From IMG/VR virus record IMGVR_UViG_3300045988_041245, positions 1 to 30,081 of that record: 30,081 nucleotides of DNA, one strand, 5' to 3'. The stretch's first letter is position 1, and every line of letters starts with the position of its first letter. The position numbers and the translations under genes were made by a program. Shown piece by piece: positions 1 through 30,081 of the stretch. This DNA comes from a virus. The notes beneath the pieces are model-generated. The model saw only the letters and a list, made by a program, of their open reading frames with translations. It ran no database searches and was not told the origin of the DNA.

Positions 1-77
1 TTGTCGTAGTACCCTACCTTGATTGTCGTAGTACCCTACCTTGATTGTCGTAGTACCCTACCTTGATTGTCGTAGTA
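1..77. repeat. 22-bp tandem direct repeat TTGTCGTAGTACCCTACCTTGA, 3.5 copies; identical to 30005..30081
   Basis: Read directly: three full units plus an 11-nt partial unit. The same 77 nt recur at the other end of the window. Each unit contains a small GTAG-N4-CTAC inverted repeat. Confidence 0.95.
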
Positions 78-101
78 GGCCTGGCCGCATAATCTGTCAC
101 C

Positions 102-144
102 ATACTCTAGAGGGATACTCTAGGGGATACTCTAGGGGATACTA
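102..144. repeat. 12-13-bp tandem repeat ATACTCTAG(A)GGG, about 3.5 copies
   Basis: Read directly: atactctagaggg / atactctagggg / atactctagggg / atacta. It starts 25 bp after the 22-bp array. Confidence 0.9.
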
Positions 145-151
145 AAAGTAA

Positions 152-174
152 GACGGCTCCCCGCTGGGAGCCGT
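152..174 (-). terminator. Hairpin ACGGCTCCC-N5-GGGAGCCGT; weak minus-strand terminator candidate
   Basis: Perfect 9-bp stem. On the minus strand it is followed by CTTACTTTTAG. No T-tract follows on the + strand. Confidence 0.3.
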
Positions 175-646
175 ATCGCGGTCCGGAGGCGAGCCAATCC
201 AAACCCCAAGGGATCGAAAGCCTAGAGCGATCGGATCCTAGCCTCGATAGCTTCGGGACTGCGGAGTGGAGCCATGGAATCTGACCTGATGCTTTCAAAG
301 CTCCTCCCATGGCTACGGGCATCGAGGTGGATGCCACCTGGTCTCGATGCTGCCCTTCGGGCCTTGGTCCCGATGCTCGGCCTGAATGGGCAAGGAGAGG
401 AGTCGGCCCGTGTCTGGCTTGGGTGGTTCTCTCACGTCTTGGTGTTCTCGATGCCTTTTCGGTGCTGTTTTGGGCTGGAACGTCACTTTTGTGCGTAAAT
501 GCCTTTCTGACGGGCTGTCGTGGGTGAGTCCTGACGAGTTATCGGGTTTGGCGTGTAAATCGGTCTGAGTGGCCTTTACGTGCGTTCTGGAGGCATGTGC
601 GATAAAAAGCGTGCGGGAGGAATGCCCTGGGATGCGTGGATGACGC

Positions 647-686
647 AAAAGAAAACCCCATCACGGCACGATGTGCTATGATGGGG
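647..686 (-). terminator. Rho-independent terminator-like hairpin on the minus strand
   Basis: About 13-bp interrupted stem (656-669/673-686). On the minus strand it is followed by TTTTCTTTT (complement of 647-655). No annotated minus-strand gene lies upstream of it. Confidence 0.5.
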
Positions 687-1152
687 TGAGTAATAATCGC
701 AAAATCCAAGTCTACCACATACATACTTGGGTGCGGAGGCACGACAACTCCCTAGCAATACCCCGGGCTCTAGGTTAATGGGGCGACCACCAAACCTGGT
801 TGATACACACGTTAGAGGTGCAGGTTCAACCGACCCAACAGACGATGGTGGAATAACCGGGGTGCCGACACCATCACATCAACGATGTAGCGCGATCTGC
901 TGGGGTATGCCGCACCAGTGGTAGTAATGCACCACCCTTATGACCGACGCCGTGCGAACGACCGACCGACGGAAACAGTCATGAAGCCTTAAAACGAAGC
1001 GTAAAAAACTTCGCTCTTAAGGCTTACTCTCTCTACCGGAGCTCGCTTCCTCCCTCAAGAAACTCTTCATGGCGGGTGTTGGTTGAGGCGAGGGTTGGGA
1101 CGTAGCGTACGACATGCCTGGTTGGTTTGCTTCGATGTTCTTCGATGCTTCG

Positions 1153-1820: not shown

Positions 1821-1876
1821 AATCCCATTGATTGCCACCGGGTAGGGCCGGTAGCAGTCAGTGGGATTTACTTTTA
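1821..1876 (+). terminator. Compound stem-loop followed by TTACTTTT (terminator/attenuator candidate)
   Basis: Outer stem 1821-1830/1859-1868 (10 bp, one G.U), inner stem 1837-1841/1848-1852, then a T-rich tail. It lies between the wHTH gene and the replisome organizer. Confidence 0.4.
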
Positions 1877-1892
1877 ACATGAGGTAAACATC

Positions 1893-2729
1893 ATGTCAGC
1901 AATCAACGACAACAACTTCATCTCAATCCAAGGATGGATGCGCACCCGCCTCAATCTCAAAGGCAACGAACTACTCATCTACGCGCTCATCTACGGCTTC
2001 TCACAGGACGGCAACTCAAGATTCACCGGCAGCCGAAAGTACATCGCCGAATGGTGTGGTTGCTCGCTTGACACCGTTGACAGGTCACTCAGCTCACTCG
2101 TAGGCAAAGGATTCCTCGCCAAATACCCACACACGGACCAGAACGGCAGCCGAGTCGTCGACTACTCCGCCATCCTGACGGTAATCGAAGCCGCCCCGGC
2201 TCACGCAGCCGCTCCGACAGCCGCACAAACCACGACTCCCCCACAGGCTCCGACACAGGCCCCATGGGCCAACACTACGAACGCAACCACCGAACAGTTC
2301 CAGACACCGACCTACGAGCCCCAGCCGCTCCTAGCCGAACCGGAACCAAAACCACAGCCAAAAAAGATACGCAAAGCCAAAAGCTTCGACGACATCATCG
2401 ACGCCTACACCAGAGACTCGACGACCAAGGAACTCCTCGGGCAATGGCTCCAGAATCGCAAAGCCAAGCGGGCCGCAATGACCGACGGAGCCATCAAAGG
2501 CAACCTCGACAAGCTCGACAAGTGCGCACAGGCGAGCCGCATGAACGTCAACGACTACCTCTCCGAGGTCATCTGCCGCGGCTGGGGCTCATTCTTCCCT
2601 ATCAACAACTACCAGCGCACCGGATACCAGAAGCCACAGCCACAGCCACAGCCAATCCAAAGCACCGCAGTCACCGTGTTACCAGACGGCCATGTCGCCG
2701 AATGCACCCCAGAAAACGGATGGTTCTAA
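1893..2729 (+). CDS. Replisome organizer / DnaD-like replication initiation protein
   Basis: N-terminal HTH (NELLIYALIYGFSQDGNSRFTGSRKYIAEWCGCSLDTVDRSLSSLVGKGFL). Pro/Thr/Ala/Gln-rich linker. C-terminal DnaD/replisome-organizer-like domain (LLGQWLQNRKAKRAAMTDGAIKGNLDKL). Sits immediately upstream of the DnaC-like loader. Confidence 0.7.
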   Translation: MSAINDNNFISIQGWMRTRLNLKGNELLIYALIYGFSQDGNSRFTGSRKYIAEWCGCSLDTVDRSLSSLVGKGFLAKYPHTDQNGSRVVDYSAILTVIEAAPAHAAAPTAAQTTTPPQAPTQAPWANTTNATTEQFQTPTYEPQPLLAEPEPKPQPKKIRKAKSFDDIIDAYTRDSTTKELLGQWLQNRKAKRAAMTDGAIKGNLDKLDKCAQASRMNVNDYLSEVICRGWGSFFPINNYQRTGYQKPQPQPQPIQSTAVTVLPDGHVAECTPENGWF

Positions 2730-2731
2730 CA

Positions 2732-2772
2732 CGACACGCCAAAAACACAATATCAACAACACGTGATATAAC
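2732..2772 (+). promoter_or_regulatory. CGACACGCC motif + ATATCA-N8-TGATAT + extended -10 candidate TGATATAAC
   Basis: CGACACGCC at 2732-2740, ATATCA at 2750-2755, TGATATAAC at 2764-2772, 31 nt upstream of the ATG at 2803. Confidence 0.35.
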
Positions 2773-2802
2773 ATTATCGTAAATAAACAGAAAGGAATAA
2801 CA

Positions 2803-3648
2803 ATGAACACCAACCTCATCGAGACCATGGCCCGAGAAGCAGGCCAAAACAGCCACTACGAAGAAGGCGACTACCTCAGCGAAGACGGCCTCCTCATGTG
2901 CGGCAAATGCCACACGCCAAAGCAATGCCGTTTCATCGCCACATGGGACGGCAAGGAGAAGAAACCATACACGCTCTGCGATTGCGCACGCGAACGCCGT
3001 GACGCCGAAGAACAGGCACGACAGGCGCAAACCCTCCGCATCGAAGTGAACAGGCTCCGCAAACTCGGCTTCCCCGACAGCGAAATGGCCGACTGGACAT
3101 TCGCCAACGACGACGGAACCGACCCAAGGACCACGAGCATCGCCCGCAAATACGTCGACAACTTCGACGAAATGAAGAAACGCGGCAAAGGACTACTCCT
3201 CTACGGTACCGTCGGCACCGGTAAGACATACGCGGCAGCCTGCATCGCTAACGAACTCATCGAACAAGGTCGCCCTTGCCTCGTAACCAACTTCGCACGA
3301 ATCACGAACACCCTCCAAGGAATGTTCGAAGGCAAGCAACGCTACCTCGACGACTTCAACCAGTTGGATCTGCTCGTCATCGACGATCTGGCCGCAGAAC
3401 GCGACACGGCCTACATGAACGAAATGATCTTCAACATCATCGATTCGAGGTACCGGAGCGGCAAACCGCTCATCGTAACAACCAACCTCACACAATCCGA
3501 ACTGACAGCCCCGGCATCCGTCGACAGACGCCGCGTCTATTCACGACTATTCGAAATGTGCGTCCCAGTCGAAGTAAACGGCATCGACAGGCGAGGAAAG
3601 AAACTCAACGACGACTCGGCCGATATGAAAAGACTCCTCGGCCTCTGA
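2803..3648 (+). CDS. DnaC/IstB-like AAA+ helicase loader
   Basis: Walker A GTVGTGKT, Walker B LLVIDDL, and SGKPLIVTTNL. N-terminal CxxC...CxC cysteines. Confidence 0.85.
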   Translation: MNTNLIETMAREAGQNSHYEEGDYLSEDGLLMCGKCHTPKQCRFIATWDGKEKKPYTLCDCARERRDAEEQARQAQTLRIEVNRLRKLGFPDSEMADWTFANDDGTDPRTTSIARKYVDNFDEMKKRGKGLLLYGTVGTGKTYAAACIANELIEQGRPCLVTNFARITNTLQGMFEGKQRYLDDFNQLDLLVIDDLAAERDTAYMNEMIFNIIDSRYRSGKPLIVTTNLTQSELTAPASVDRRRVYSRLFEMCVPVEVNGIDRRGKKLNDDSADMKRLLGL

Positions 3649-3657
3649 TAGAACCAA

Positions 3658-3690
3658 GGCGACACGTGCGAAAAGCGTGCCGCCTTTTTT
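3658..3690 (+). terminator. Rho-independent terminator
   Basis: Stem GGCGACACG/CGTGCCGCC (one A.C mismatch), 9-nt loop, T6 tail. Starts 10 nt after the loader stop codon. Confidence 0.75.
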
Positions 3691-3698
3691 GTTCCCCT

Positions 3699-3729
3699 CG
3701 GCGTGTCGCATCTCGTAACCGGGTATAGT
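3699..3729 (+). promoter_or_regulatory. CGGCGTGTCG motif + -10 candidate TATAGT
   Basis: CGGCGTGTCG at 3699-3708, TATAGT at 3724-3729, ATATCA at 3735-3740. Upstream of the ATG at 3785. Confidence 0.4.
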
Positions 3730-3784
3730 GTTAAATATCAGGCAAGGGAAACACCAAGCCACAGAAAAGAAAAGGAAACCAAAA

Positions 3785-4084
3785 ATGAGCAACCACACAC
3801 CCCTGAAAACCTTATTCGCCGCGCTCCACGGAAGCCTCCCATACGAATACGACGAGAAATACTTCAACGGCTCAGGACTGGAAGACGCCATCATAATCAG
3901 CAAAACAAGCTCGGAACGCTACATATACATCACCGCAAACATGCCCGACGACAACGCCATCTTCGACCTGACCCTATATGGCGACACCATCGACGACGAC
4001 CCAATCGAAATATGCCAATGGGACCCCGACGACCCGGACCTCACCCTCACGGCCCTCATCGCCCACATCGAAAAAACTCTCTGA
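3785..4084 (+). CDS. Small acidic hypothetical protein (99 aa)
   Basis: ATG preceded by GAAAAGGAAACC. Asp/Glu-rich (DDDPIEICQWDPDDPD). I trimmed the start relative to track ORF 3728..4084. Confidence 0.6.
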   Translation: MSNHTPLKTLFAALHGSLPYEYDEKYFNGSGLEDAIIISKTSSERYIYITANMPDDNAIFDLTLYGDTIDDDPIEICQWDPDDPDLTLTALIAHIEKTL

Positions 4085-4101
4085 CAAGAAAAGGAACAAA
4101 A

Positions 4102-4392
4102 ATGAACCTCGAACCGAACGCATTCACCACCGAAATTTCCAACACGCTAGCCGCCACCGGGAAAAACTACTTGGTAGAAACCATCAACCTCGTCGACAGC
4201 GAGACCTCATGCGAAATTACCAAACACGGCTCAACCAGGAAACTGTACATCACACCAGTCGAAGACGGCCTAATCGACATGGTCCTATTCAACGAAAAAG
4301 GAATCGCACTCGCAACATGCACACTATTCGACAAAAACGACTTAAACATCACCACTGAGGAACTCACGAACCTCATCACACTCTGCTTCTAA
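4102..4392 (+). CDS. Small hypothetical protein (96 aa)
   Basis: ATG preceded by AAAAGGAAC. It is the C-terminal part of track ORF 3703..4392, whose upstream part is Arg/His/Pro shadow sequence. Confidence 0.6.
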   Translation: MNLEPNAFTTEISNTLAATGKNYLVETINLVDSETSCEITKHGSTRKLYITPVEDGLIDMVLFNEKGIALATCTLFDKNDLNITTEELTNLITLCF

Positions 4393-4408
4393 AAGAAAAG
4401 GAAACATA

Positions 4409-4858
4409 ATGGGCAAAAAAACAAAAGAACCAATCATCGTCGACCTCAACGACGAAGACATCATGAGCTGGATCAACGAACTACGCAAAAGCCAACCATC
4501 AGCCAAAGAACGACGCAAAATCAGCGACTACAACTACTACCACCGCCACAAGGAGGAACGCGCCGAAGCAAACAAGAAATGGAGGGAAGAACACGCCGAA
4601 CAATACGCGGCAAAACAAAAGGAATACCACAGCAAGCCAAAAACCCTCAAGAAAAAAAGAGAGGCAGCCAAGGAACGATACCATACCGACAGTGAATGGC
4701 GTGAGGGAATGCTCGCCAGACAGAAAGCCAGATACCACGCGATGACCCCGGAACAAAAAGCCGAATACACCCGGAAACAAACCGAACGAGCCCGCATCCG
4801 ACGAGCCAAAGCCAAAGCGTCAAAAGCCGAAAACGAAAACAAGAGGGACCAGTCATGA
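4409..4858 (+). CDS. Highly charged Lys/Arg/Glu-rich protein with a reiterated (K/R)x(R)YH motif
   Basis: RBS AAAAGGAAAC. Motif reads YYHRHKEE, KEYHSKPK, KERYHTDSE and KARYHAMTPE at roughly regular spacing. Confidence 0.6.
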   Translation: MGKKTKEPIIVDLNDEDIMSWINELRKSQPSAKERRKISDYNYYHRHKEERAEANKKWREEHAEQYAAKQKEYHSKPKTLKKKREAAKERYHTDSEWREGMLARQKARYHAMTPEQKAEYTRKQTERARIRRAKAKASKAENENKRDQS

Positions 4859-5226
4859 ACGATAACGTGAACCATCCAAAGCATTACGCCGGCCGTAACA
4901 TCGGCTACGAATGCATCGACCTCGCACAACACCAGACATTCTGCGTCGGCAACGCGATCAAATACTTATGGCGCTACAAGGACAAGGGAAACCCAACCGA
5001 AGACCTGAAGAAAGCGTTATGGTACGCACGCCTCGCCCAGAAGAAGCTGGAACCCGTATACACAGAGGTAGGGGACTGCGAATCGATCTTGTACCTCCTA
5101 GTCGACTCCACAGCCGGGAACGAGCGCTCCGCATGGGTCGGGCTGACCTTGAACGACTGGCAGCGGACGGTGGAAGCACTCGACGAAATGATAAAGGAGA
5201 CACGAAATGAAGAGCAAGTTGGTTGA
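4855..5226 (+). CDS. DUF3310-family protein
   Basis: NHPKHY...ECIDL...GNAIKYLWRYKDKGNPTEDLKKALWYARL matches the DUF3310 signature. Its ATGA start overlaps the previous stop. Confidence 0.7.
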   Translation: MNDNVNHPKHYAGRNIGYECIDLAQHQTFCVGNAIKYLWRYKDKGNPTEDLKKALWYARLAQKKLEPVYTEVGDCESILYLLVDSTAGNERSAWVGLTLNDWQRTVEALDEMIKETRNEEQVG

Positions 5227-5383
5227 AATACCGATCGAACAACTGGCGATCGAACACTACCTATTCGACTTGGAATATCCAATCGAAAAAGTCAGCGAAA
5301 TATTAGACGTGGACAAAAACCTCGTCAAAGAAATTCACGACAAGTACATTAGATCGTCCATACCAGGAAGGAGCAACAAATGA
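5207..5383 (+). CDS. Small HTH-like protein (58 aa; below the ORF-track cutoff)
   Basis: ATG 5207 preceded by AAAGGAG. My own translation: MKSKLVEIPIEQLAIEHYLFDLEYPIEKVSEILDVDKNLVKEIHDKYIRSSIPGRSNK. Confidence 0.45.
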   Translation: MKSKLVEIPIEQLAIEHYLFDLEYPIEKVSEILDVDKNLVKEIHDKYIRSSIPGRSNK

Positions 5384-5550
5384 AGAAAACATCGAAAGAC
5401 CAGATCATCAAATGGTATGAGGACGGGCTGACGATCAACGAATTCGCCCCACTCATCCCGCAGTATTGCAGACAGGAAATTGAGGCCGTCATCAAGGAAT
5501 ACGAGAAGGACAGGGCATGGGCTCGAGTAGCAACATCCTTACTGCATTGA
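5380..5550 (+). CDS. Small HTH-like protein (56 aa; below the ORF-track cutoff)
   Basis: ATG 5380 in an ATGA overlap with the previous stop, preceded by GGAAGGAG. My own translation: MKKTSKDQIIKWYEDGLTINEFAPLIPQYCRQEIEAVIKEYEKDRAWARVATSLLH. Confidence 0.45.
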   Translation: MKKTSKDQIIKWYEDGLTINEFAPLIPQYCRQEIEAVIKEYEKDRAWARVATSLLH

Positions 5551-5613
5551 TACTCGTGCTCACCATGCTCGTCGCCTACAGGAAACGATGAAAGCTGAAA
5601 TATAAACGGTCTT

Positions 5614-5664
5614 ACGGCGTGTCTCATCAACGTGGCACGCCGTTTATGATATATTAGACATATC
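5614..5664 (+). promoter_or_regulatory. Hairpin CGGCGTG-N14-CACGCCG + extended -10 TGATATATT inside the palindrome TGATAT-N7-ATATCA
   Basis: Read directly: stem 5614-5620/5635-5641 and palindrome 5646-5651/5659-5664. About 85% identical to the module at 9280..9330. Upstream of the ATG at 5705. Confidence 0.55.
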
Positions 5665-5704
5665 AAGCAAGAAAGCTTGGACGACAAAAACGAAAGGAAA
5701 CCAA

Positions 5705-6061
5705 ATGCACAACGTAACCGAAACCCAGGCTAAAGCAATGATGCACACCATCGATGTCCGCCTCGACCAGAAAAGCCACTACGACACCGGCCACACACCA
5801 AAAGGCACCATCTACCACGTCGGCGACCACAAATACGTCACCCTCGACGACTACTCCCAAGCCTTCGAAGACTACGAATGGGCCCACAACGGAGCGGAAT
5901 GGGCATGCTACATCTACACTCTCACCAAAAACAACCCGGAACGCCTATGCTTCTACCTACAGGCATACAACATCGGAGGCATGGAATCCCTCGAAGCCAT
6001 CTACAACAACGTCACCGAAGAAACAATGATGACCGTCGTTTACCCGATCTACAAGCACTGA
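5705..6061 (+). CDS. Hypothetical protein (118 aa)
   Basis: RBS GAAAGGAAACC. First gene after promoter module B. Confidence 0.6.
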   Translation: MHNVTETQAKAMMHTIDVRLDQKSHYDTGHTPKGTIYHVGDHKYVTLDDYSQAFEDYEWAHNGAEWACYIYTLTKNNPERLCFYLQAYNIGGMESLEAIYNNVTEETMMTVVYPIYKH

Positions 6062-6089
6062 CCACCAACACCAAGAAAGGACCCCACAA

Positions 6090-6683
6090 ATGGAAAACAA
6101 CAACCTCAACAAGAAATTCATGCGAGTCCTCAACGAAGTCCCGAACTTCTCCACGGACGAGACAGCCAACGCCGGCAGCCGCACCTACAAGTACCTCAAC
6201 CTCGCCACCCTCCTCAAGAACATCAAACCCATCTTCGAGAAGAACGGCATCGCATTCTCTCAGAGAGTCACGTTCGACGGCACGGGAGACGGACGGCAGA
6301 CCCTCGGCACCGTCGAAACCATCATCTTCGACGAAAACGAACAGCAGACGGTCTGCGAATACCCATTCTTCGTCACCGGAGACCCGCAACAGGTCGGCAG
6401 CGCCATCACATACGCCCGCCGATACAGCCTTACCACCGTGCTCGGCATCTTCCCGGACAAGGACGACGACGGAGGATACGCCAAACAGCAATACGACACG
6501 GCAGGCAGGCCCATAGGAGCCGACCAGTACGCCATGCTCGTAAAGGCGATGGACACACATTCCATCCCCGGCGAAGCACGCGGCGAATTCATCTCAGGCA
6601 CTTTGAACCGGCCGGTCAAAGGCTGGGGGGGAATCACCCAAGCCGACCTAGCCAAGCTTATGGAAGCCATCAATAGGATGTGA
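6090..6683 (+). CDS. erf: Erf-family single-strand annealing protein
   Basis: YKYLNLATLLKNIKPIFEKNGIAFSQ and GSAITYARRYSLTTVLGI match the ERF superfamily signatures. Adjacent to an exonuclease gene. Confidence 0.7.
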   Translation: MENNNLNKKFMRVLNEVPNFSTDETANAGSRTYKYLNLATLLKNIKPIFEKNGIAFSQRVTFDGTGDGRQTLGTVETIIFDENEQQTVCEYPFFVTGDPQQVGSAITYARRYSLTTVLGIFPDKDDDGGYAKQQYDTAGRPIGADQYAMLVKAMDTHSIPGEARGEFISGTLNRPVKGWGGITQADLAKLMEAINRM

Positions 6684-6685
6684 CG

Positions 6686-6716
6686 AAAACCCCGGTATTA
6701 CCCGCCGGGGTTTTCT
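6686..6716 (+). terminator. Rho-independent terminator
   Basis: AAAACCCCGG-N9-CCGGGGTTTT directly after the erf stop codon. Confidence 0.75.
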
Positions 6717-6729
6717 CATACCCGTGGTG

Positions 6730-6781
6730 CGACACGCCGGCGTACCCACTCCACACCACGTGTGATATAGTAGAAATATCA
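6730..6781 (+). promoter_or_regulatory. CGACACGCCG motif + extended -10 TGATATAGT inside the perfect palindrome TGATAT-N7-ATATCA
   Basis: CGACACGCCG at 6730-6739. Palindrome at 6763-6768/6776-6781. 21 nt upstream of the ATG at 6802. Confidence 0.55.
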
Positions 6782-6801
6782 ATACAAGAAAGGAAACGGT
6801 A

Positions 6802-7707
6802 ATGAAAATCATCAACCTATCACAAACCCACAACACCCAAGCATGGCTCAACGAACGCCTAGGCCGCATCACCGGCACCAAAAGCAGCAGCCTAGCCCTA
6901 GACCACTACCAGCAAACCGACACCAAAAAAATCATCAAATACCGGGACAAAGCACTCGAACAAGCAAAAAAAGCAACATCGAAAGACGAGACCGAAGAGC
7001 ACTTCCGAACGGCACTAAAATACGACGAACTACTCACCGAAACCGAAGCAAAAAACAAACGCCTCAAAGTCGGCATCGACTTCTGGAAATTCCTCGCCGA
7101 AACCATGGCCGAACAGCCAGACGGAGAAAACCCCATGGAACGCGGCCACAGGCTCGAACCGGAAAACATCCGACTCACCCTCCAACAACTCGGATACAAA
7201 GAAAAAGACTGCATCACCGACTGCGGCATCTGGGAAAGCGACGAAGACAATCGAATCGCATGCAGTCCAGACGCCTACGAAAACTCAGACAATCCAACAT
7301 GGGCCATCGAATGCAAAAGCCTCGGAAGCGCCTACCACCTCCAAGCCGTCATCCCATGGATGGTCCACTCACAGCGCATCCGCCAACGAGAAATACCGGG
7401 AAACCTCGCCGACGCAGCCGCACAAATCCTCCCCCCAACAGCAACAAGCCTCAAAGCCACCAACATGGACTTCATACCGGACACATACAAAGCGCAAGTA
7501 CTCCAATACTTCGTGGTCTGCGACACGCTCAAAACACTCTACTTCAGCATGTACGACCCACGCGTATACGGAAACGCACGACACCAAGTCATCCCGATAC
7601 GCCGAACGGAAGTCCAACCACTCATCACCGAACACAAACGCAAACAACTCAACACATTGCGCATCATCGACATCATCACCGAAGCCACAGGAGCAACATT
7701 CAAATGA
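6802..7707 (+). CDS. YqaJ-type (lambda Exo-like, PD-(D/E)XK) recombination exonuclease
   Basis: N-terminal QAWLNERLGRITGTKSS (YqaJ signature). SPDA...IECKS catalytic D...ExK motif. Paired with erf. Confidence 0.7.
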   Translation: MKIINLSQTHNTQAWLNERLGRITGTKSSSLALDHYQQTDTKKIIKYRDKALEQAKKATSKDETEEHFRTALKYDELLTETEAKNKRLKVGIDFWKFLAETMAEQPDGENPMERGHRLEPENIRLTLQQLGYKEKDCITDCGIWESDEDNRIACSPDAYENSDNPTWAIECKSLGSAYHLQAVIPWMVHSQRIRQREIPGNLADAAAQILPPTATSLKATNMDFIPDTYKAQVLQYFVVCDTLKTLYFSMYDPRVYGNARHQVIPIRRTEVQPLITEHKRKQLNTLRIIDIITEATGATFK

Positions 7708-7973
7708 CAATCGACACCATCCTCAACAGTCCTGACATCTACGTCCTCTTCGACGGCTGCCCCACATGCGGACCAGGAAACGCGGCCTTCCTCGACTCAT
7801 GCCGCACGACAGCACAATACATGTGGAAACAACTGCAAATCGTGCCATCCGGGAGCCAAACCGCCACCCTCATCCGCACCATCGCAAAAAACCAAAACAA
7901 GCCAATCAAATACCCACTGATACTGCTCGACGGAACAATCCACTACACGCCGGCCGAACTCATCCAAAAATAA
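7704..7973 (+). CDS. Glutaredoxin/NrdH-like thioredoxin-fold protein (89 aa)
   Basis: ATGA overlap with the exonuclease stop. IYVLFDGCPTCGP (CxxC) and KYPLILLDGTIHYTPAELI resemble a glutaredoxin fold. Confidence 0.5.
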   Translation: MTIDTILNSPDIYVLFDGCPTCGPGNAAFLDSCRTTAQYMWKQLQIVPSGSQTATLIRTIAKNQNKPIKYPLILLDGTIHYTPAELIQK

Positions 7974-7987
7974 CGAAAGGAACCCCA

Positions 7988-8320
7988 ATGTACCACACCA
8001 ACGACCCACTGGAACAAGACATCCTCAACCTCTTCGAGGAAGATAAAGTCCACGTGAACGCGATGCGCCGATTCTTCAAGGACTCCATATGCGACTACCT
8101 CGACGACGACCCGGACAACCCCGAACACGAAGAAGCCGCATACCGATTCTTCGACAAGTGGTACCGCAGCATCCGCAAGGCAATCTGGACAAGCGGAGCC
8201 ATATACACCCTCGAACACCACGGCACGCCACACGAGGAAGCCCAAAAAGAAGCCACCACCACATACAGCAAAGCCTACTGGAAACACGACCAGAAACGCA
8301 GGAAAGGAAACCCACAATGA
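7988..8320 (+). CDS. Hypothetical acidic protein (110 aa)
   Basis: ATG preceded by GAAAGGAACC. I trimmed the start relative to track ORF 7766..8320. Confidence 0.55.
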   Translation: MYHTNDPLEQDILNLFEEDKVHVNAMRRFFKDSICDYLDDDPDNPEHEEAAYRFFDKWYRSIRKAIWTSGAIYTLEHHGTPHEEAQKEATTTYSKAYWKHDQKRRKGNPQ

Positions 8321-8652
8321 AAACCGAATGGTGGACAGCCGTCATCACAACCGGACTCACAAGCGGATACGCGACCACAGTCAGCCAACTTTCCACCGGC
8401 CCCGGCGACATCTTCGCTAAGCTACGGAAAAAGCTCACCGACAAAACCGAAAACGCAAGCAATGACCTCACCCGCAGTCTTGGCATGCTCGCCTACTGCG
8501 GATGGTGCCTCAGCCCCTACGCGACACTGCCGGTATGGGCTGCGACAGCGAAGATCCACCACATCCACTTCGGCATCAAATGGCTCACCGGATGGGCCGT
8601 AGCCACAAGCATCGCAGCCTACTACAGACACCAAGCAGAAAGCAGACTCTAA
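8317..8652 (+). CDS. Membrane protein, DUF1360-like (111 aa)
   Basis: ATGA overlap, RBS GGAAAGGAAACC. Hydrophobic segments and YCGWCLSPY resemble the DUF1360 C-x-W-C motif. Confidence 0.45.
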   Translation: MKTEWWTAVITTGLTSGYATTVSQLSTGPGDIFAKLRKKLTDKTENASNDLTRSLGMLAYCGWCLSPYATLPVWAATAKIHHIHFGIKWLTGWAVATSIAAYYRHQAESRL

Positions 8653-8936
8653 TGGACACTCCGAAAATCCACGCACTCACGCTCCTCCGCCTCGCAGGGA
8701 AACCAATCACCCAGGAACGACTGACCGACATGGCCGAAACGGTGAAATACCCCGACACGCCACAAAGCCTAAGAAGCCGCATAACCGAACTCGAACGGTC
8801 AGGGCACGTCCACCGCGTCGACCGAAACGGCATCAGCAAACACAACCGGCCATGCTGGAGATGGCAACTCACCAAGAAAGGCGACGAACTCATGCAAGAG
8901 CTCTTCGACACCACGACACCGGACAAAAGAAAGTAA
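8652..8936 (+). CDS. Winged-helix DNA-binding protein (94 aa)
   Basis: TAATG overlap with the previous gene. LTLLRLAGKPITQERLTDMAE...RSRITELERSGHVHRV looks MarR/ArsR-like. Confidence 0.55.
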   Translation: MDTPKIHALTLLRLAGKPITQERLTDMAETVKYPDTPQSLRSRITELERSGHVHRVDRNGISKHNRPCWRWQLTKKGDELMQELFDTTTPDKRK

Positions 8937-8943
8937 GGGAACC

Positions 8944-9270
8944 ATGGCAACGAAACCATTCACCGTCACCATCAAAGACGAAAAGGTCACAGTACACCAG
9001 AACCCATATACAGGAGCCTTCTACCGCATCCTCCCCGATGGGAAACATACCACGGTCAGCTACCTCCTCATCAGAACCCGGACGACAGCCATCCAACGGC
9101 TCAAATATTGGCGAAACCGGTACGGGTACACCCAAGCCGAACTCGCCAAACTGGTCCACGTATCCGGCCCAACCATCATCATGATGTGGGAAAACGGCCT
9201 AAGACATCCACGTAAGGAATACCGGCAGCGAATTAACGCCGAGCTCGGCGGCGATGTCTTCTTCGAGTAA
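8944..9270 (+). CDS. XRE-family HTH regulator (Cro/CI-type HTH in the C-terminal half)
   Basis: RNRYGYTQAELAKLVHVSGPTIIMMWENGLRHP is a typical HTH_3 motif. Confidence 0.65.
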   Translation: MATKPFTVTIKDEKVTVHQNPYTGAFYRILPDGKHTTVSYLLIRTRTTAIQRLKYWRNRYGYTQAELAKLVHVSGPTIIMMWENGLRHPRKEYRQRINAELGGDVFFE

Positions 9271-9279
9271 CTCATCCTA

Positions 9280-9330
9280 CGGCGTGTCGCACTATCGTGG
9301 CACGCCGTTTATGATATGATAAAAACATCA
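9280..9330 (+). promoter_or_regulatory. Hairpin CGGCGTG-N14-CACGCCG + extended -10 TGATATGAT and imperfect palindrome TGATAT-N7-ACATCA
   Basis: Stem 9280-9286/9301-9307. TGATAT at 9312-9317, ACATCA at 9325-9330. Near-copy of the module at 5614..5664. Confidence 0.55.
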
Positions 9331-9369
9331 ATCAAAAAGATTGGCACAACACAAGAAAGGACCGAGAAA

Positions 9370-9642
9370 ATGGAAACCATCAACTACCTCACCACCCTCA
9401 CCCACATCCTCTCCACCCAGCCGAAAGCCGCCGACATCCTCGACGAACACGGCCTCGGCCTCGAAACCACATTCGGGTGCATCGGAATCAACGACTTCGA
9501 CAGCTTCATGAAACTCTACGGCCTCCTCAACACCATCGAAACCGTCGAAACCACCACCATCAGCACAATCGACGAAGACGAAAAAGGATACGGTTTCACC
9601 GTGACCAGTCCAATCACCATCCACTTCTTCCACATGAAATAA
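9370..9642 (+). CDS. Small acidic hypothetical protein (90 aa), apparently monocistronic
   Basis: ATG 9370 preceded by AAGAAAGGACC. The ATG at 9316 lies inside the promoter module, so I disfavour it. Flanked by its own promoter module and the 9661..9701 terminator. Confidence 0.55.
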   Translation: METINYLTTLTHILSTQPKAADILDEHGLGLETTFGCIGINDFDSFMKLYGLLNTIETVETTTISTIDEDEKGYGFTVTSPITIHFFHMK

Positions 9643-9660
9643 CCACCCAGAACATACAAA

Positions 9661-9701
9661 AACGCCCCGCAGACGGCCGGACAAGCCAAACGCGGGGCGT
9701 T
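9661..9701. terminator. Terminator hairpin between convergent genes, stronger for the minus strand
   Basis: AACGCCCCGC-N21-GCGGGGCGTT. An A-rich run on the + side upstream gives a U-tract for the minus-strand transcript. Confidence 0.6.
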
Positions 9702-9718
9702 ACCATATCAGAGGCAGA

Positions 9719-10039
9719 CTAGCGGCTCACACCGGCATAATGCACGCCGAACAAGCCAGCCACGCCAGAACCAACCAACGCACAAGCACCGCCAACGACC
9801 GCAACCCACGACGGGACACCCGGCACAGCACTCACCAAGCTTGCGACAGCACCGGCAATACCCACCAGCCCGGACACCAAATACGCCCAACGACGAGTCT
9901 CAGCATCAAAAGCCGGCACATAATTATCCGACCCATCCGCACACTCGTTCGTGACCATGGTCTCCGAAGTCGGCTCACCAGTCAACACATCATCAGCTAA
10001 CACTGCATGCTTAGCCATAAAATCAATCCTTCCAATCAC
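9719..10039 (-). CDS. Holin-like membrane protein (two C-terminal TM segments)
   Basis: GTGA overlap with the endolysin stop; an alternative ATG lies at 10018. Hydrophobic runs WAYLVSGLVGIAGAVASLVSAV and WVAVVGGACALVGSGVAGLFGV. Sits downstream of the lysin. Confidence 0.6.
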   Translation of the reverse strand: MIGRIDFMAKHAVLADDVLTGEPTSETMVTNECADGSDNYVPAFDAETRRWAYLVSGLVGIAGAVASLVSAVPGVPSWVAVVGGACALVGSGVAGLFGVHYAGVSR

Positions 10040-10878
10040 TTGAAGATAATACCGTTATTAAGCCGCTTCTGGAATTCCATAACAGCCTGAGACGGTGCCG
10101 GACTGATGATACCATCCCCCGGGAAACCGTTCATCTCCATGAGGAAACGATGAATGAACTCCGGCCCGGCATTACGTGGACGATCCGTGATCCCGAAACG
10201 CTGCGACATCCACTCAACCCAATCACTACCAGAAGTACCCTCCTCCAAACAGGCGATATTCTGATTCTCCAAACAACGGATCTGCCCGGACATGACACCA
10301 TCAACCGACGTGCCAGCAACCTCCTGGGCCCTACGCATCGTCAAAGGACCCCAAGACCCATCGACCTCAAGCTTAGTCACAGACTGCGTGGCCGGCTGAA
10401 CAGGCACCGGATTAGACGGAGCCACCAAACCACGAGACAAACGGTCCAAACGATCCAAATCATACGTTCCAGGACACTGCGTATTACAACAATCACGATG
10501 CCGAATCAACGGCAGATCACCATACTCGGCACGCAAATCACGAATCAACTGAGCAACAGTCAGGTAATCACCGTCGGACTGGCGTGGATTGCATTCGATA
10601 CCAATGCCCATATCATTGCCCTTCGAACGGACGCCCACACCGTCACCGGCATGCCACGCACGATCATCCGGATCCACGATACAAGCCACACGACCGGCCT
10701 CAACGACGTAATGCGCGGAAGCACGACGAACCGGACTGCACAAAGTCTTGACAACACCCTCGAACGTCGGATGCGTATTCGGGTCACCCCACCAGTGGAT
10801 CACAATATACTTGATCCCATACGGGCGACCACTCGCATAATTCGGACTATCATACTGGGTAATGTATTCATATGACAT
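10036..10878 (-). CDS. Endolysin: N-acetylmuramoyl-L-alanine amidase (Amidase_2/PGRP) with a C-terminal peptidoglycan-binding-like domain
   Basis: YIVIHWWG...ASAHYVV...AWHAG amidase_2 signature. C-terminal FPGDGIISPAPSQAVMEFQKRLN looks PG_binding_1-like. RBS AAGGAGAC. Confidence 0.85.
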   Translation of the reverse strand: MSYEYITQYDSPNYASGRPYGIKYIVIHWWGDPNTHPTFEGVVKTLCSPVRRASAHYVVEAGRVACIVDPDDRAWHAGDGVGVRSKGNDMGIGIECNPRQSDGDYLTVAQLIRDLRAEYGDLPLIRHRDCCNTQCPGTYDLDRLDRLSRGLVAPSNPVPVQPATQSVTKLEVDGSWGPLTMRRAQEVAGTSVDGVMSGQIRCLENQNIACLEEGTSGSDWVEWMSQRFGITDRPRNAGPEFIHRFLMEMNGFPGDGIISPAPSQAVMEFQKRLNNGIIFK

Positions 10879-10889
10879 TTTGTCTCCTT

Positions 10890-11039
10890 TCAGACAGTTA
10901 AAACATACCAGACGGTAAACAGAAAACGGGCGAAAGACGGCATACCAGTGACGGTCAAATAACCGGCCACCACCATAACCCCGACAAGAAACGACGACAA
11001 GAGGATAAGCAGAATGTTCTCAATAAATTCCTGACGCAT
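10890..11039 (-). CDS. Small two-TM membrane protein (49 aa), second holin/antiholin candidate; not on the ORF track
   Basis: My own translation: MRQEFIENILLILLSSFLVGVMVVAGYLTVTGMPSFARFLFTVWYVLTV. Its stop lies 11 nt before the endolysin ATG. No clear SD. Confidence 0.4.
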   Translation of the reverse strand: MRQEFIENILLILLSSFLVGVMVVAGYLTVTGMPSFARFLFTVWYVLTV

Positions 11040-11067
11040 ACCATCAGCATACCAAACTAACCTAAGA

Positions 11068-11073
11068 TAGACT
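11068..11073 (+). promoter_or_regulatory. -10 candidate TAGACT exactly 7 nt before the ATG at 11081 (leaderless geometry)
   Basis: No SD upstream of 11081. Same hexamer-N7-ATG spacing as at 26823 and 28608. Confidence 0.3.
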
Positions 11074-11080
11074 TAGCCTT

Positions 11081-11428
11081 ATGACCGAACTAATATCACC
11101 ACTCATCGGACTCATAGGCATCGCCGTAGGCGGCACCATCACATGGGCATCCACACGCCGCAACAACCTCACCACCGCCTACCAACATCTCGTCGAAGCC
11201 CAAGGCGAACTCAAAAAACAAATCGACGCCCAAGACGAAAAAATCAACAAACTCATCGAAAGCCGCGACGAACTCCAACACATCAACGACCTCGAAACCG
11301 GCTACATCCGCAGACTAGGCCACTGGCTAGCCCAATTCTGCGAAATAATCAAAGACAAGGAATTCCTTGCACGACACCCCAAACCACCCCTACCTGACGA
11401 GCTCCGCGACCGCATCTGCCCACTCTAA
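11081..11428 (+). CDS. N-terminal TM + coiled-coil protein (115 aa), opposite strand to all neighbours
   Basis: ISPLIGLIGIAVGGTITWA is a TM segment. QHLVEAQGELKKQIDAQDEKINKLIESRDELQHINDLE is coiled-coil-like. Followed by the bidirectional terminator. Confidence 0.6.
   Translation: MTELISPLIGLIGIAVGGTITWASTRRNNLTTAYQHLVEAQGELKKQIDAQDEKINKLIESRDELQHINDLETGYIRRLGHWLAQFCEIIKDKEFLARHPKPPLPDELRDRICPL
11090..11098 (-). promoter_or_regulatory. Extended -10-like TGATATTAG on the minus strand; candidate lysis-cassette promoter
   Basis: Reverse complement of ctaatatca, about 50 nt upstream of the ATG at 11039. A promoter is needed here because the late transcript meets a terminator at 11444..11475. 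Confidence 0.3.
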
Positions 11429-11443
11429 CCACCACAAGACACG

Positions 11444-11475
11444 AAAAAACCCCGGCATACAACCGGGGCTTTTCC
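11444..11475. terminator. Bidirectional rho-independent terminator
   Basis: A6-CCCCGG-N7-CCGGGG-CTTTT between convergent genes 11081..11428 (+) and 11481..12386 (-). Confidence 0.75.
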
Positions 11476-11480
11476 ATATG

Positions 11481-12386
11481 TCATACCGACCATGTCATAG
11501 TCGCACTGGTCCACACACCACTATCATACGTGATATCCTTGAAAGGTCTCACATACAAGCCCGTCCTATCCAGCTGGAAACCGCTATATTCAACACCGGC
11601 CCCAGGAACGTTCAAATCGTCAAAATGAGGCTTCACATAGTCCGGGAACGTGAGAATCTGACTCTTCGACCACGCGGTCGCATTCCATTTAGGCCCTCTC
11701 GTCGCCTTGACGGCAAGGCTGACGATATTACCAGACATCGAGCACTTATACCAGACACTCCAATCCTTATACCACTGACCATGACCCAACTGGACATCAG
11801 TCAACGACACCCAAGCATCATTGACACGACGATACCGCTGCCCAACACTCGTAACAACGGCCTCGACCCCGTCAACGGTCCAAATCTTGATCAACTGATT
11901 CCAAGTATCCACCTCAATCGTGCCGTCAACATGGATCTTCGGAGCCACGTCAGACACGACACCAGCCGTGACCCTAGCTATAACCAAACCATTGATCTGC
12001 GCGTCGGGCGTACTGGCATCCCACGACTGCAACCATGCGCCCGGAGTCTCACCCTGAGACAAACTCGGATCGTAAGCCGCGACCACGATCTTATAATCCC
12101 CCGTAGAATCAGGCACGTTCACCGTCATAGGCTCCGTTATCGCATAAGTGTACGAGCCAGTCGCCGACCACGGGCGCAGGGTACCGCAATGAGGCTTAAC
12201 GGTGACAGTCAACCCGTCGATCGTCGACAACGGGGTAGGACTGCCATACCGGACACCCTGAACGCCACCGAAAGCGGAACCATCAGACGGAAACAGGAAC
12301 GGGTTCACAACATGCCGGTAATCATCAGCCGTGTAAGCTGGCGCTCCATTCAAAGCAGTCAAAGGATGCAACACAATATCACTCAT
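11481..12386 (-). CDS. Minor tail protein / receptor-binding protein candidate
   Basis: Last gene of the tail module, with RBS GAGGAA. No motif recognised, so this call rests on position only. Confidence 0.45.
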   Translation of the reverse strand: MSDIVLHPLTALNGAPAYTADDYRHVVNPFLFPSDGSAFGGVQGVRYGSPTPLSTIDGLTVTVKPHCGTLRPWSATGSYTYAITEPMTVNVPDSTGDYKIVVAAYDPSLSQGETPGAWLQSWDASTPDAQINGLVIARVTAGVVSDVAPKIHVDGTIEVDTWNQLIKIWTVDGVEAVVTSVGQRYRRVNDAWVSLTDVQLGHGQWYKDWSVWYKCSMSGNIVSLAVKATRGPKWNATAWSKSQILTFPDYVKPHFDDLNVPGAGVEYSGFQLDRTGLYVRPFKDITYDSGVWTSATMTWSV

Positions 12387-12406
12387 AAGTCATTCCTCGC
12401 AATCAA

Positions 12407-13078: not shown

Positions 13079-13087
13079 CAGAACCCC

Positions 13088-29899: not shown

Positions 29900-29952
29900 G
29901 CCCCGGTCAGTCTTGGAGGAGGATCCTTCGGGCTGACCGGGGCTTTATTTTT
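29900..29952 (+). terminator. Rho-independent terminator
   Basis: GCCCCGGTCAG-N22-CTGACCGGGGC followed by TTTATTTTT. Confidence 0.8.
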
Positions 29953-30004
29953 AGCCATTCTCGACGAGTGAGCGGTAACCGCACAGTCGGGAGACCTAGC
30001 CTCG

Positions 30005-30081
30005 TTGTCGTAGTACCCTACCTTGATTGTCGTAGTACCCTACCTTGATTGTCGTAGTACCCTACCTTGATTGTCGTAGTA
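30005..30081. repeat. 22-bp tandem repeat, 3.5 copies; identical to 1..77
   Basis: Read directly. Confidence 0.95.

What the first reader, a model, noticed from the sequence alone, without database searches (positions are those of the whole stretch)
1..144. Genome closes inside a 22-bp iteron-like array of unresolved copy number, followed by a second 12-bp array
The first and last 77 nt are identical, and each consists of 3.5 copies of TTGTCGTAGTACCCTACCTTGA. Identical ends indicate a circular or terminally redundant assembly. Because the overlap lies wholly within a tandem array, the true copy number is at least 3.5 and is unknown.

A 22-bp period equals two helical turns, so bound proteins would all sit on one face of the helix. 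This is the classic iteron geometry.

Twenty-five bp downstream is a second array, ATACTCTAG(A)GGG x3.5. Both arrays lie between the terminator of the dut/DUF1064 unit and the ORF-free region. They are about 1.8 kb upstream of the DnaD-like organizer and DnaC-like loader genes.

Candidate roles are a replication origin bound by the organizer or wHTH proteins, a pac/TerS recognition site, or a centromere-like site.
Basis: partly seen in the sequence, partly recalled or inferred. Interest (0 to 1): 0.65.

Follow-up and report, generated by a model that had tools for sequence, protein, structure and literature searches.

The report
Iteron-type replication origin of gut phage
The repeats at the contig ends are most likely the binding sites of this gut phage's own replication initiator, so probably its origin of replication. 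This is a familiar kind of element, the repeat number cannot be read from short-read assemblies, and the genome also shows an unexplained, extreme strand bias centred on this spot.

Summary
Bases 1-77 equal 30005-30081 and are 3.5 perfect copies of a 22-bp unit. A 12/13-bp array (x3.4) follows at 102-143.

The 77-nt overlap is an assembler k-mer closure of a 30,004-bp circle, not a physical terminal repeat. A de Bruijn simulation shows a cut exactly at this vertex only if the array has at least 4.5 copies. An independent assembly of the same strain shows 1.5 copies, and resolved relatives carry 3 cores. The copy number is therefore unresolved.

About 25 related ~30-kb gut phages (Umezonoviridae/Namikivirus; predicted Bifidobacterium host, non-lysogenic) carry 22-23-bp arrays at the same place, with different sequences. 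Array type tracks only the N-terminal winged-helix domain of the DnaD-like initiator (1893-2729): AMI 0.87, against 0.13-0.14 for that protein's C-terminal part and the loader. Flanking genes and TerS show no association by pairwise identity. The initiator's C-terminal tail tracks the DnaC-like loader type.

Best reading: a lambda-O/P-like iteron origin (confidence about 0.65). A pac site and a centromere are rejected.

Caveat: an extreme strand asymmetry, independent of gene orientation, is centred on the arrays. By the canonical rule its sign would place a terminus here.

The parts
29900..29952 (+). Intrinsic terminator ending the dut-DUF1064 unit. It forms the left wall of the pocket that holds the arrays.
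   Evidence: Perfect 11-bp inverted repeat GCCCCGGTCAG/CTGACCGGGGC followed by TTTATTTTT. It is conserved in all relatives.
29980..29993 (+). Single degenerate forward iteron-like unit (CCGCACAGTCGGGA).
   Evidence: It resembles the D-type units CCGCA(C/A)AATCAGGG found at the same place in relatives. This was judged by eye; on its own it is weak.
30005..30081 (-). 22-bp array, same DNA as 1-77. It holds 4 cores TTGTCGTAGTA. Read on the - strand the unit is TCAAGGTAGGGTACTACGACAA.
   Evidence: The reverse complement shares AATC..GGTAGGG with D-type iterons of relatives that have the same initiator type.
1..77 (-). 22-bp array: the duplicate copy of 30005-30081 created by the assembler's k=77 closure.
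85..98 (+). Single forward iteron-like unit CCGCATAATCTGTC, followed by CACCATACT. It corresponds to the last unit of D-type arrays in relatives.
   Evidence: GCCGCAAAATCAGTCACCATACT in 057166, 080525 and 117572.
102..143 (+). 12/13-bp array ATACTCTAG(A)GGG x3.4. It is a candidate unwinding element or second protein site.
   Evidence: It is present in all relatives with type I or III initiators. It is the local minimum of duplex stability, at the 98th percentile genome-wide.
153..174 (-). G+C-rich hairpin, terminator-like on the - strand. It forms the right wall of the pocket.
   Evidence: It is conserved in relatives. It is the most stable duplex in the neighbourhood.
175..630 (.). Conserved non-coding stretch next to the arrays; function unknown.
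   Evidence: Column identity is 75-80% in 14 relatives. No ORF is conserved in frame or length.
1893..2177 (+). N-terminal winged-helix domain (residues 1-95) of the initiator. It is the proposed iteron reader.
   Evidence: Pfam HTH_36 E 4.5e-10 and DnaD_N 2.4e-4. The AlphaFold model has pLDDT 80-90 with the helix/wing order of a winged helix. The best PDB match is the DnaD N-domain 2V79. The domain co-varies with array type.
2178..2729 (+). Rest of the initiator: a disordered linker, a four-helix domain and a C-terminal tail (...DGHVAECTPENGWF) that matches the loader type.
   Evidence: PHROG 'replication initiation O-like' E 6.8e-23. Model. Tail motif against loader type.
2803..3648 (+). DnaC/IstB-like AAA+ helicase loader.
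   Evidence: phrog_50 E 1.1e-58. Pfam IstB_IS21 E 1.4e-11.

Best explanation
The 22-bp array is the iteron part of the phage's replication origin, together with the two single iteron-like units beside it and the 12/13-bp array.

Proposed mechanism:
1. The N-terminal winged-helix domain of the DnaD-like initiator (1893-2729) reads the iterons. Their 22-23-bp spacing puts them on roughly one face of the helix.
2. The bound initiators help open the adjacent, less stable 12/13-bp repeat region.
3. The initiator's C-terminal tail recruits the DnaC-like loader (2803-3648). The loader puts the host helicase on the DNA.

This is the modular logic of lambda O/P and of iteron plasmids.

What is shown:
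- The repeats are real and unique.
- Their place and period are conserved in about 25 relatives, while their sequence changes.
- The sequence type tracks only the initiator's N-terminal domain.
- The initiator's tail tracks the loader type.

What is inferred:
- Physical binding.
- Unwinding at the short repeats.
- That replication starts here.

The 77-nt identical ends are an assembly closure. The true copy number in this sample is probably at least 4.5. It differs between assemblies, with 1.5 to at least 4.5 copies seen or implied. Resolved relatives have 3 cores.
For: Conserved architecture:
- All ~25 relatives carry arrays of 2.5-4.7 copies with a 21-23-bp period, 100-500 nt after the DUF1064 stop. 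The arrays fall into several unrelated or related sequence types.

Specific co-variation with the initiator's N-terminal domain (residues 1-95):
- Same-array-type pairs share 83.6% identity (minimum 74%). Different-type pairs share 31.9% (maximum 65%).
- DUF1064 lies about 125 bp from the array and gives 81.8% against 81.6%. g81, g149, dut, Ant, TerL, TerS, DnaC and the initiator's own C-terminal part also show no separation.
- Adjusted mutual information is 0.87 (0 of 5000 permutations reach it). It is 0.14 for the initiator's C-terminal part and 0.13 for DnaC.
- Every array type maps to a single initiator type.
- Finer scale: the three genomes with the wing 'QNGSRVVDY' share the core GGTAGGG.

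Link from the initiator to the loader:
- The C-terminal tail motif ENGWF goes with loader type 1. The motif ..CVF goes with loader type 2, without exception.
- This includes the window, whose tail matches its loader although its central domain is of the other type.

Nature of the protein:
- HTH_36 and DnaD_N.
- 'Replication initiation O-like'.
- Best fold match is the DnaD N-domain; the plasmid RepA NTD 4PQL is also listed.
- Public databases name relatives 'Replication initiator protein A'.

Setting:
- The arrays sit in a transcription-free pocket between convergent terminators.
- The 12/13-bp array is the least stable duplex locally and is followed by a very stable hairpin.
- The arrays sit at the midpoint of the 3.3-kb skew-neutral zone. 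The opposite skew pole is diametrically opposite and gradual, as expected for a passive terminus.
- 75% of coding length is co-oriented with forks leaving this point. This follows from the gene map.
Against: - No binding or replication data exist. All evidence is comparative.
- By the canonical rule (leading strand G/T-rich; cumulative GC-skew minimum marks the origin), the skew puts the origin near 16.4 kb and the terminus near 0.6-1.7 kb. That is the opposite of this reading.
- The sharp onset of skew is at about 1.75-1.9 kb, not at the arrays.
- The A type (window) was grouped with the D type after the initiator types had been seen. The similarity of reverse-complemented A to D is moderate: 11/13, shuffle p about 0.01, and only against two of four D arrays.
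- The 12/13-bp array is 50% G+C, so it is not a classic A+T-rich unwinding element.
- No iteron-like operator was found upstream of the initiator gene.
- Organizer-type initiators usually have their origin inside their own gene.
Confidence: 0.65

Rival explanations
1. The arrays are bound by the initiator but are not where replication starts. They would act as a terminus or fork barrier, or as a copy-control (handcuffing, incA-like) site. The origin would lie elsewhere: near 16.4 kb by the canonical skew rule, or in or next to the initiator gene at about 1.8 kb.
For: - The amino/keto asymmetry at four-fold sites has the sign expected if forks converge on this region.
- A 3.3-kb plateau of zero skew with sharp edges, centred on the arrays, is what a two-sided fork trap would give.
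- The window has iterons in both orientations.
- The sharp skew onset at about 1.8 kb has its antipode at about 16.8 kb, the centre of the gradual switch.
Against: - The region near 16.4 kb lies entirely inside the tape-measure gene. It has no non-coding DNA, no repeats and no iteron-like word.
- The switch there is gradual over about 3 kb, unlike an origin.
- The initiator links the arrays to a helicase loader. That is the function of an origin.
- The skew is far stronger than canonical replication skew, so the canonical sign rule may not apply.
Confidence: 0.2
2. The arrays are a packaging recognition site (pac or cosB) read by the small terminase. The contig ends would then reflect physical genome ends.
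For: - Several contigs of relatives also end inside this array.
- Repeated sites are typical of TerS recognition.
Against: - The contig ends are exactly assembler k-mers. Other relatives close at arbitrary unique places, or break in an unrelated collagen-like repeat.
- TerS (about 26434-26823) is uniform across the clade and does not co-vary with array type.
- The arrays are 3.2 kb from TerS and in a different transcription unit.
Confidence: 0.04
3. The arrays are a centromere-like partition site of a plasmid prophage.
For: - Tandem direct repeats in a non-coding pocket.
- No integrase was found.
Against: - No ParA/ParB or other partition protein was found in any ORF scanned.
- The family is reported as non-lysogenic and enriched in virus particles.
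- No close relative was found in 185,579 species-representative genomes.
- The co-variation is with a replication initiator.
Confidence: 0.03
4. The repeats are slippage products without function, and the arrangement at the ends is only an assembly artefact.
For: - Perfect copies suggest recent expansion.
- Copy number differs between two assemblies of the same strain.
Against: - Position, period and number of units are conserved across about 25 diverged genomes. The sequence changes in step with one protein domain.
Confidence: 0.03

Closest known systems
ori-lambda with the O and P proteins of lambdoid phages (from established knowledge)
   Same: - About four ~20-bp iterons in helical phase, then an easily opened region, then a palindrome.
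- Iteron sequence differs between relatives and tracks the initiator's N-terminal domain.
- The initiator's C-terminal part is matched to the helicase loader.
- PHROG labels the protein 'replication initiation O-like'.
   Different: - In lambda the origin lies inside the O gene. Here it lies 1.8 kb upstream, in an intergenic pocket between terminators.
- The loader here is a DnaC/IstB-type AAA+ protein, not lambda P.
- The easily opened region is a 12/13-bp repeat of 50% G+C.
- The window's main array is inverted relative to the flanking single units.
RepA_N-type plasmid initiators of Gram-positive bacteria (e.g. pSK41 RepA) and the DnaD N-terminal domain
   Same: - The winged-helix N-domain is structurally closest to the DnaD N-domain (2V79, E 4.8e-4). 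The plasmid RepA NTD 4PQL is among the matches.
- The initiator binds iterons.
- Public annotation of relatives reads 'Replication initiator protein A (RepA) N-terminus'.
   Different: - Pfam RepA_N was not among the families matched at E<=0.01.
- Those plasmids have the origin inside the rep gene.
- This is a 30-kb tailed phage with its own DnaC-like loader.
Iteron plasmids (R6K with 22-bp iterons, RK2 with 13-mers in the unwinding element, pSC101, P1)
   Same: - Direct repeats of about 22 bp next to short 12-13-mer repeats in the least stable stretch.
- Rep specificity is private to each replicon.
   Different: - No inverted half-iteron operator was found at the initiator's promoter.
- There is no evidence for copy control.
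- The protein family is different.
Replisome organizers of Firmicutes phages (SPP1 G38P, lactococcal P335-type Rep proteins) with DnaC/DnaI-like loaders
   Same: - Gene pair of organizer plus loader.
- The organizer binds repeated boxes at the origin.
- Erf-type annealing protein and SSB are present in the same genome.
   Different: - In those phages the known origins lie within or directly next to the organizer gene.
- The host here is predicted to be Bifidobacterium.

Membership tests
Iteron-type replication origin | Three or more direct repeats of about 17-23 bp at helical-phase spacing in non-coding DNA | tested here: met
   At least 3.5 copies of 22 bp in the window. Relatives have 2.5-4.7 copies of 21-23 bp.
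Iteron-type replication origin | Repeat sequence is private to the replicon and matched to its initiator's DNA-binding domain | tested here: met
   Pairwise identity of the initiator N-domain separates same-type from different-type pairs completely (minimum 74% against maximum 65%). The control proteins do not separate. AMI 0.87, p<=2e-4.
Iteron-type replication origin | Physical binding of the initiator to the repeats | not testable with these tools
   Needs EMSA or footprinting.
Iteron-type replication origin | Adjacent easily melted (A+T-rich or 13-mer) unwinding element | tested here: inconclusive
   The 12/13-bp array is the local stability minimum, at the 98th percentile genome-wide. However it is 50% G+C. 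Type II relatives have CATATATAT at this place.
Iteron-type replication origin | Strand-composition switch of origin polarity (leading strand G/T-rich away from the origin) | tested here: not met
   A switch is centred here, but its sign is that of a terminus under the canonical rule.
Iteron-type replication origin | Initiation of DNA synthesis mapped to the site, or autonomous replication of the cloned site | not testable with these tools
   No read data or experiments are available.
DnaD-like / RepA_N-like initiator (replisome organizer) | N-terminal winged helix of the DnaD-N type | tested here: met
   Pfam HTH_36 scores 39.6 bits (cut-off 25). DnaD_N scores 21.7 bits, below its cut-off of 27. 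The AlphaFold wHTH spans residues 8-95. The Foldseek top hit is 2V79.
DnaD-like / RepA_N-like initiator (replisome organizer) | Match to the Pfam RepA_N model | tested here: not met
   RepA_N is not among the families with E<=0.01. The name is given only by public annotation of relatives.
DnaD-like / RepA_N-like initiator (replisome organizer) | Encoded next to, and matched with, a helicase loader | tested here: met
   The DnaC-like gene lies 74 bp downstream. The tail motif tracks the loader type.
DnaD-like / RepA_N-like initiator (replisome organizer) | Origin repeats inside the initiator's own gene | tested here: not met
   Only short coding low-complexity repeats (periods 6 and 9) occur in 1893-2729. 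The co-varying arrays lie 1.8 kb upstream.
pac/cos site read by the small terminase | Site within or next to the terminase genes and matched to TerS | tested here: not met
   The arrays are 3.2 kb from TerS. TerS is uniform and does not co-vary.
pac/cos site read by the small terminase | Physical genome ends at the site | not testable with these tools
   Needs reads. Contig ends are explained by assembler k.
Physical direct terminal repeat | Terminal repeat independent of assembler settings and at the same place in relatives | tested here: not met
   The overlap equals a common assembler k-mer size (77). Relatives have overlaps of 55, 99 and 141 nt at arbitrary places. A second assembly of the same strain runs straight through the site.
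Plasmid-type centromere (parS) | Partner ParA/ParB-type genes and a plasmid-prophage life style | tested here: not met
   No such domains were found. The family is reported as non-lysogenic. No close relatives were found in bacterial genomes.

The most novel reading that the evidence does not exclude
These phages carry an extreme amino/keto strand asymmetry that ignores gene orientation. At four-fold sites the + strand is 5-9% T over 1.9-15 kb and 10% A over 17.5-28 kb. The asymmetry is symmetric about the iteron arrays.

One possibility is that the arrays are the origin. The asymmetry then has the opposite sign to every cellular replicon, which would imply an unknown replication-linked mutational regime. 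Examples would be low-fidelity lagging-strand synthesis or exposure of the leading-strand template.

The other possibility is that the canonical sign holds. The initiator-bound iterons would then act as a fork trap or terminus, and replication would start inside the tape-measure gene.

Either outcome would be new for tailed phages.
Probability: 0.2. Interest if true: 0.8.

Novelty: new member of a known kind. Interest (0 to 1): 0.45.

Why it matters
- It gives a testable origin and initiator-specificity map for Umezonoviridae. This is a prevalent human-gut phage family known only from metagenomes, with Bifidobacterium as predicted host.
- The natural swaps of iteron type, N-domain type and loader-matching tail are ready-made specificity experiments.
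- Practically, these genomes should not be reported with a fixed repeat number, and the 77-nt 'terminal repeat' should not be read as a physical end.
- The strand asymmetry could make the polarity of replication, and its mutational footprint, directly measurable in an uncultured phage.

Tried and rejected
- Exact search for the 22-bp unit in IMG/VR found no match. A search in JGI metagenomes also found none. A relaxed pattern found one relative with a resolved 3-core array.
- Rfam and tRNA scans of the window found nothing.
- DNA search of the phage collection gave only a tiny match to Bifidobacterium phage BlindBasel1. That phage has TerL at 50% identity but lacks both the arrays and the strong skew.
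- An unbiased association of ORF clusters with array types was noisy. Its top real hits were initiator ORFs. Two initiator ORFs were first picked in the wrong frame and then corrected.
- I looked for an iteron-like operator upstream of the initiator gene. A genome's own arrays and its own upstream region share no longer words than cross-genome controls do, so this was rejected.
- TerS N-terminal variability turned out to be an over-extended ORF call. The real protein is about 129 aa and uniform.
- A search for prophage or plasmid copies in species-representative genomes found only distant terminases.
- A sequence search of the initiator against PDB gave nothing significant. Fold search was needed.
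- A literature search on strand asymmetry in phages found nothing specific to this family.
- Transcription-linked explanations of the skew were rejected. The - strand tail genes and the - strand head genes have opposite coding-strand composition.

Full report
**Observation.** The first and last 77 bases of the window are identical. Each consists of 3.5 perfect copies of TTGTCGTAGTACCCTACCTTGA. With up to three mismatches the unit occurs nowhere else, and shuffles give no matches. Twenty-four bases downstream lies ATACTCTAG(A)GGG x3.4 at 102-143, also unique. The periodic stretch begins exactly at 30005 and ends exactly at 77. A degenerate half unit precedes it.

**What the identical ends are.** I stitched 17 complete relatives from overlapping loci. 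Their terminal overlaps are 55, 99 or 141 nt at arbitrary unique places in four contigs. In three contigs the ends lie inside this same array position, and in three others inside an unrelated collagen-like 9-bp repeat. These are assembler k-mer closures of circular paths, and breaks occur at perfect repeats.

I simulated a k=77 de Bruijn graph of the window's circle.
- Arrays of 77 nt or less give no branching vertex. A cut at exactly this point would then be a 1-in-30,004 coincidence.
- Any array of 99 nt or more gives exactly one branching vertex, and it is identical to the window's 77-nt ends.
- The source sample therefore most likely has at least 4.5 copies.

An independent MEGAHIT (k141) contig of essentially the same strain runs through the site with only 1.5 copies. 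It is 100% identical over 2185 nt and 99.955% over 6696 nt. Its 33 nt is the minimal path for small k, so this may be a collapse or real variation. Close relatives with imperfect copies resolve to three cores. The ends are not evidence for a physical terminal repeat.

**What the genome is.** It is a 30,004-bp circle.
- + strand early genes lie at 1196 to about 9270. They include a DnaD/O-like initiator at 1893-2729, a DnaC-like loader at 2803-3648 and Erf at 6090-6683.
- - strand genes run from 28930 down to 9719. They include an anti-repressor, SSB, TerS, TerL, portal, a protease-capsid fusion, the tape measure, tail genes and an amidase.
- dut and DUF1064 lie on the + strand at 29131-29880.
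- No integrase and no partition genes were found.

The initiator is 72% identical to that of Namikivirus ikeda (Umezonoviridae). That family (VC_18 of Nishijima et al. 2022, PMC9448778) has 113 members. Its mean size is 30,099 bp and its G+C is 0.546. It is scored non-lysogenic, with CRISPR-predicted hosts Bifidobacterium and Coprococcus. No close relative was found in species-representative bacterial genomes.

**Comparative anatomy of the locus.** In all ~25 relatives examined, arrays of 2.5-4.7 copies with a 21-23-bp period follow the DUF1064 terminator. Their sequences fall into types.

| Type | Array sequence |
|---|---|
| B | CTCAAAATGAGGGTGG.. |
| C | palindromic TCGATACCTAGGTATCGA.. |
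| D | GCCGCAAAATCAGGGTGG.. |
| III | degenerate CTGTAAAAT.TACAG |
| A | the window's type |

A short-period array or A+T run follows, and then a G+C-rich hairpin. In the window the pocket is closed by a + strand terminator (29900-29952) and a terminator-like hairpin on the - strand (153-174).

Read on the - strand, the A unit and its variants in close relatives (CGAAAATCAAGGTAGG) resemble D units (CGCAAAATC..GGTAGGG). Single forward D-like units flank the window's array at 29980-29993 and 85-98. The window therefore appears to carry the same iteron family in inverted orientation. This similarity is moderate (11/13, shuffle p about 0.01) and I noticed it after seeing the protein types.

**Which protein goes with the arrays.**

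| Initiator N-terminal type | Array type | Genomes |
|---|---|---|
| ..CSLDTVDRSL.. | A or D | 7 |
| ..CSMATIDRTL.. | B | 9 |
| unrelated MKYT.EGFSQ.. domain | C | 4 |
| ..CSM(K/R)TVDNT.. | III | 4 |

- For residues 1-95, pairs of genomes with the same array type share at least 74% identity. Pairs with different types share at most 65%.
- No control protein shows any difference. The controls were DUF1064 (125 bp from the array), g81, g149, dut, Ant, TerL, TerS, the DnaC-like loader and the initiator's own C-terminal part.
- Adjusted mutual information with array type is 0.87 for the N-domain (0 of 5000 permutations reach it). It is 0.14 for the C-terminal part and 0.13 for the loader.
- The small wHTH protein 1444-1752 is shuffled independently of array type.
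- TerS is really about 129 aa (26434-26823) and is uniform.

Conversely, the initiator's last ~15 residues come in motifs (..ENGWF..CVF) that track the loader type without exception. This includes the window, which is a mosaic.

The AlphaFold model shows a confident winged helix at residues 8-95, a disordered linker, a four-helix domain and a disordered tail. The best PDB match is the N-domain of B. subtilis DnaD, and a plasmid RepA N-domain is also listed.

**Mechanism proposed.** Initiator N-domains occupy the iterons. The neighbouring 12/13-bp repeats open; they are the least stable duplex locally, at the 98th percentile, and are followed by a very stable hairpin. The initiator tail then brings in the DnaC-like loader with the host helicase. 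Binding, opening and initiation are inferred. The co-variation and the modular pairing are shown.

**The conflict.** The genome has an extreme strand asymmetry that is not tied to gene strand.

| Region and genes | + strand composition at four-fold sites (A/C/G/T) |
|---|---|
| 1.9-9.3 kb, + strand genes | 0.31/0.44/0.16/0.09 |
| 9.7-15.1 kb, - strand genes | 0.37/0.40/0.19/0.05 |
| 17.5-28.3 kb | 0.10/0.13/0.54/0.23 |
| genes between 28.6 and 1.85 kb | symmetric |

- The 3.3-kb neutral zone has sharp edges and its midpoint lies at the arrays. The opposite switch is gradual (15.3-18.2 kb, inside the tape-measure gene) and diametrically opposite.
- The pattern is conserved in all 17 complete relatives. 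It is weak in a more distant clade and absent from BlindBasel1.
- The signature (C to T and A to G on one strand) is that of single-strand deamination. By the canonical rule, forks would converge on the arrays.
- Against that reading: the other pole has no non-coding DNA or repeats, its switch is gradual as for a passive terminus, the bias is far stronger than canonical replication skew, and the arrays are tied to a helicase-loading protein.

I therefore keep 'origin' as the best explanation at about 0.65, and 'initiator-bound site that is not the start point' at about 0.2. A coverage (marker-frequency) profile would decide.

**Comparison and novelty.** The locus works like ori-lambda with O/P and like iteron plasmids. 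The protein belongs with DnaD-like / RepA_N-like organizers by fold. It does not match the Pfam RepA_N model, and unlike those systems its origin is not inside its own gene.

This is a new member of a known kind, in a phage family for which the searchable literature gives no replication data. The arrays themselves are of moderate interest. The strand asymmetry is the unusual feature.

Noticed in passing
whole window; arcs 1850-15000 and 17300-28550; neutral zones 28550-1850 and 15000-17300: There is an extreme amino/keto strand asymmetry that ignores gene orientation. Coding-strand AT skew at codon position 3 is +0.4 to +0.9 in early genes, and +0.2 to +0.8 in the - strand genes of 17.5-28.3 kb. 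It is -0.6 to -0.86 in the - strand tail and lysis genes. The poles are diametrically opposite and are conserved in 17 relatives. The asymmetry is weak in a sister clade and absent from Bifidobacterium phage BlindBasel1.
   Followed up: partly
window 175-630: A non-coding stretch is conserved as well as the genes (75-80% column identity in 14 relatives), with no ORF conserved in frame or length. The RNAalifold energy is lower on the + strand (-56.5) than on the - strand (-22.9). A TCGATGCT motif recurs (339-351, 365-377, 443-455, 1134-1150). Relatives carry TTCGATGCTT as 2-3 tandem copies.
   Followed up: partly
window 640-1100: This stretch is absent from the 13 relatives that were aligned, so it looks like an insertion. 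A 15-bp-arm hairpin at 655-687 is followed on the - strand by a T-rich run and looks like a terminator.
   Followed up: no
window 2682-2729 and 2803-3648: The last ~15 residues of the initiator (..DGHVAECTPENGWF here, ..KNCVF in others) track the type of DnaC-like loader in all genomes compared. The window's initiator is a mosaic: its central domain is of one type and its tail of the other.
   Followed up: yes
window 20791-20863 (ORF 20690-20980, - strand): A collagen-like 9-bp repeat (CAGCGGGAC x8) lies in a small tail-fibre-like ORF. Three contigs of relatives break inside the same repeat, so its length is probably also unreliable in assemblies.
   Followed up: partly
window 11367-12536, 12857-14086, 13902-14693 (+ strand): Long open frames run antisense to the tail genes and have no family matches. 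They are probably by-products of the skewed composition, and gene callers could mis-annotate them.
   Followed up: partly
window 26434-27042 (- strand): The ORF upstream of TerL is over-extended. Relatives show the conserved protein starts at MTEVVRD (about 26823), giving about 129 aa. It has no Pfam or PHROG match and is called TerS by position only.
   Followed up: partly
L252 2143-2185 against window 30005-30081: A MEGAHIT k141 contig from another ENA assembly is the same strain (1 mismatch and 2 gaps in 6.7 kb). It carries 1.5 instead of 3.5 copies of the 22-bp unit.
   Followed up: yes
window 20997-22805 (- strand): A single 602-aa ORF matches both head maturation protease and major capsid protein families. 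It appears to be a protease-capsid fusion.
   Followed up: no
loci of contigs 023566 (L073) and 040056 (L078/L134), first 600 nt after DUF1064: Two relatives carry two different 22-bp arrays in tandem (types C and B) but only the type-B-matched initiator. The C array looks like a relic of module exchange.
   Followed up: partly
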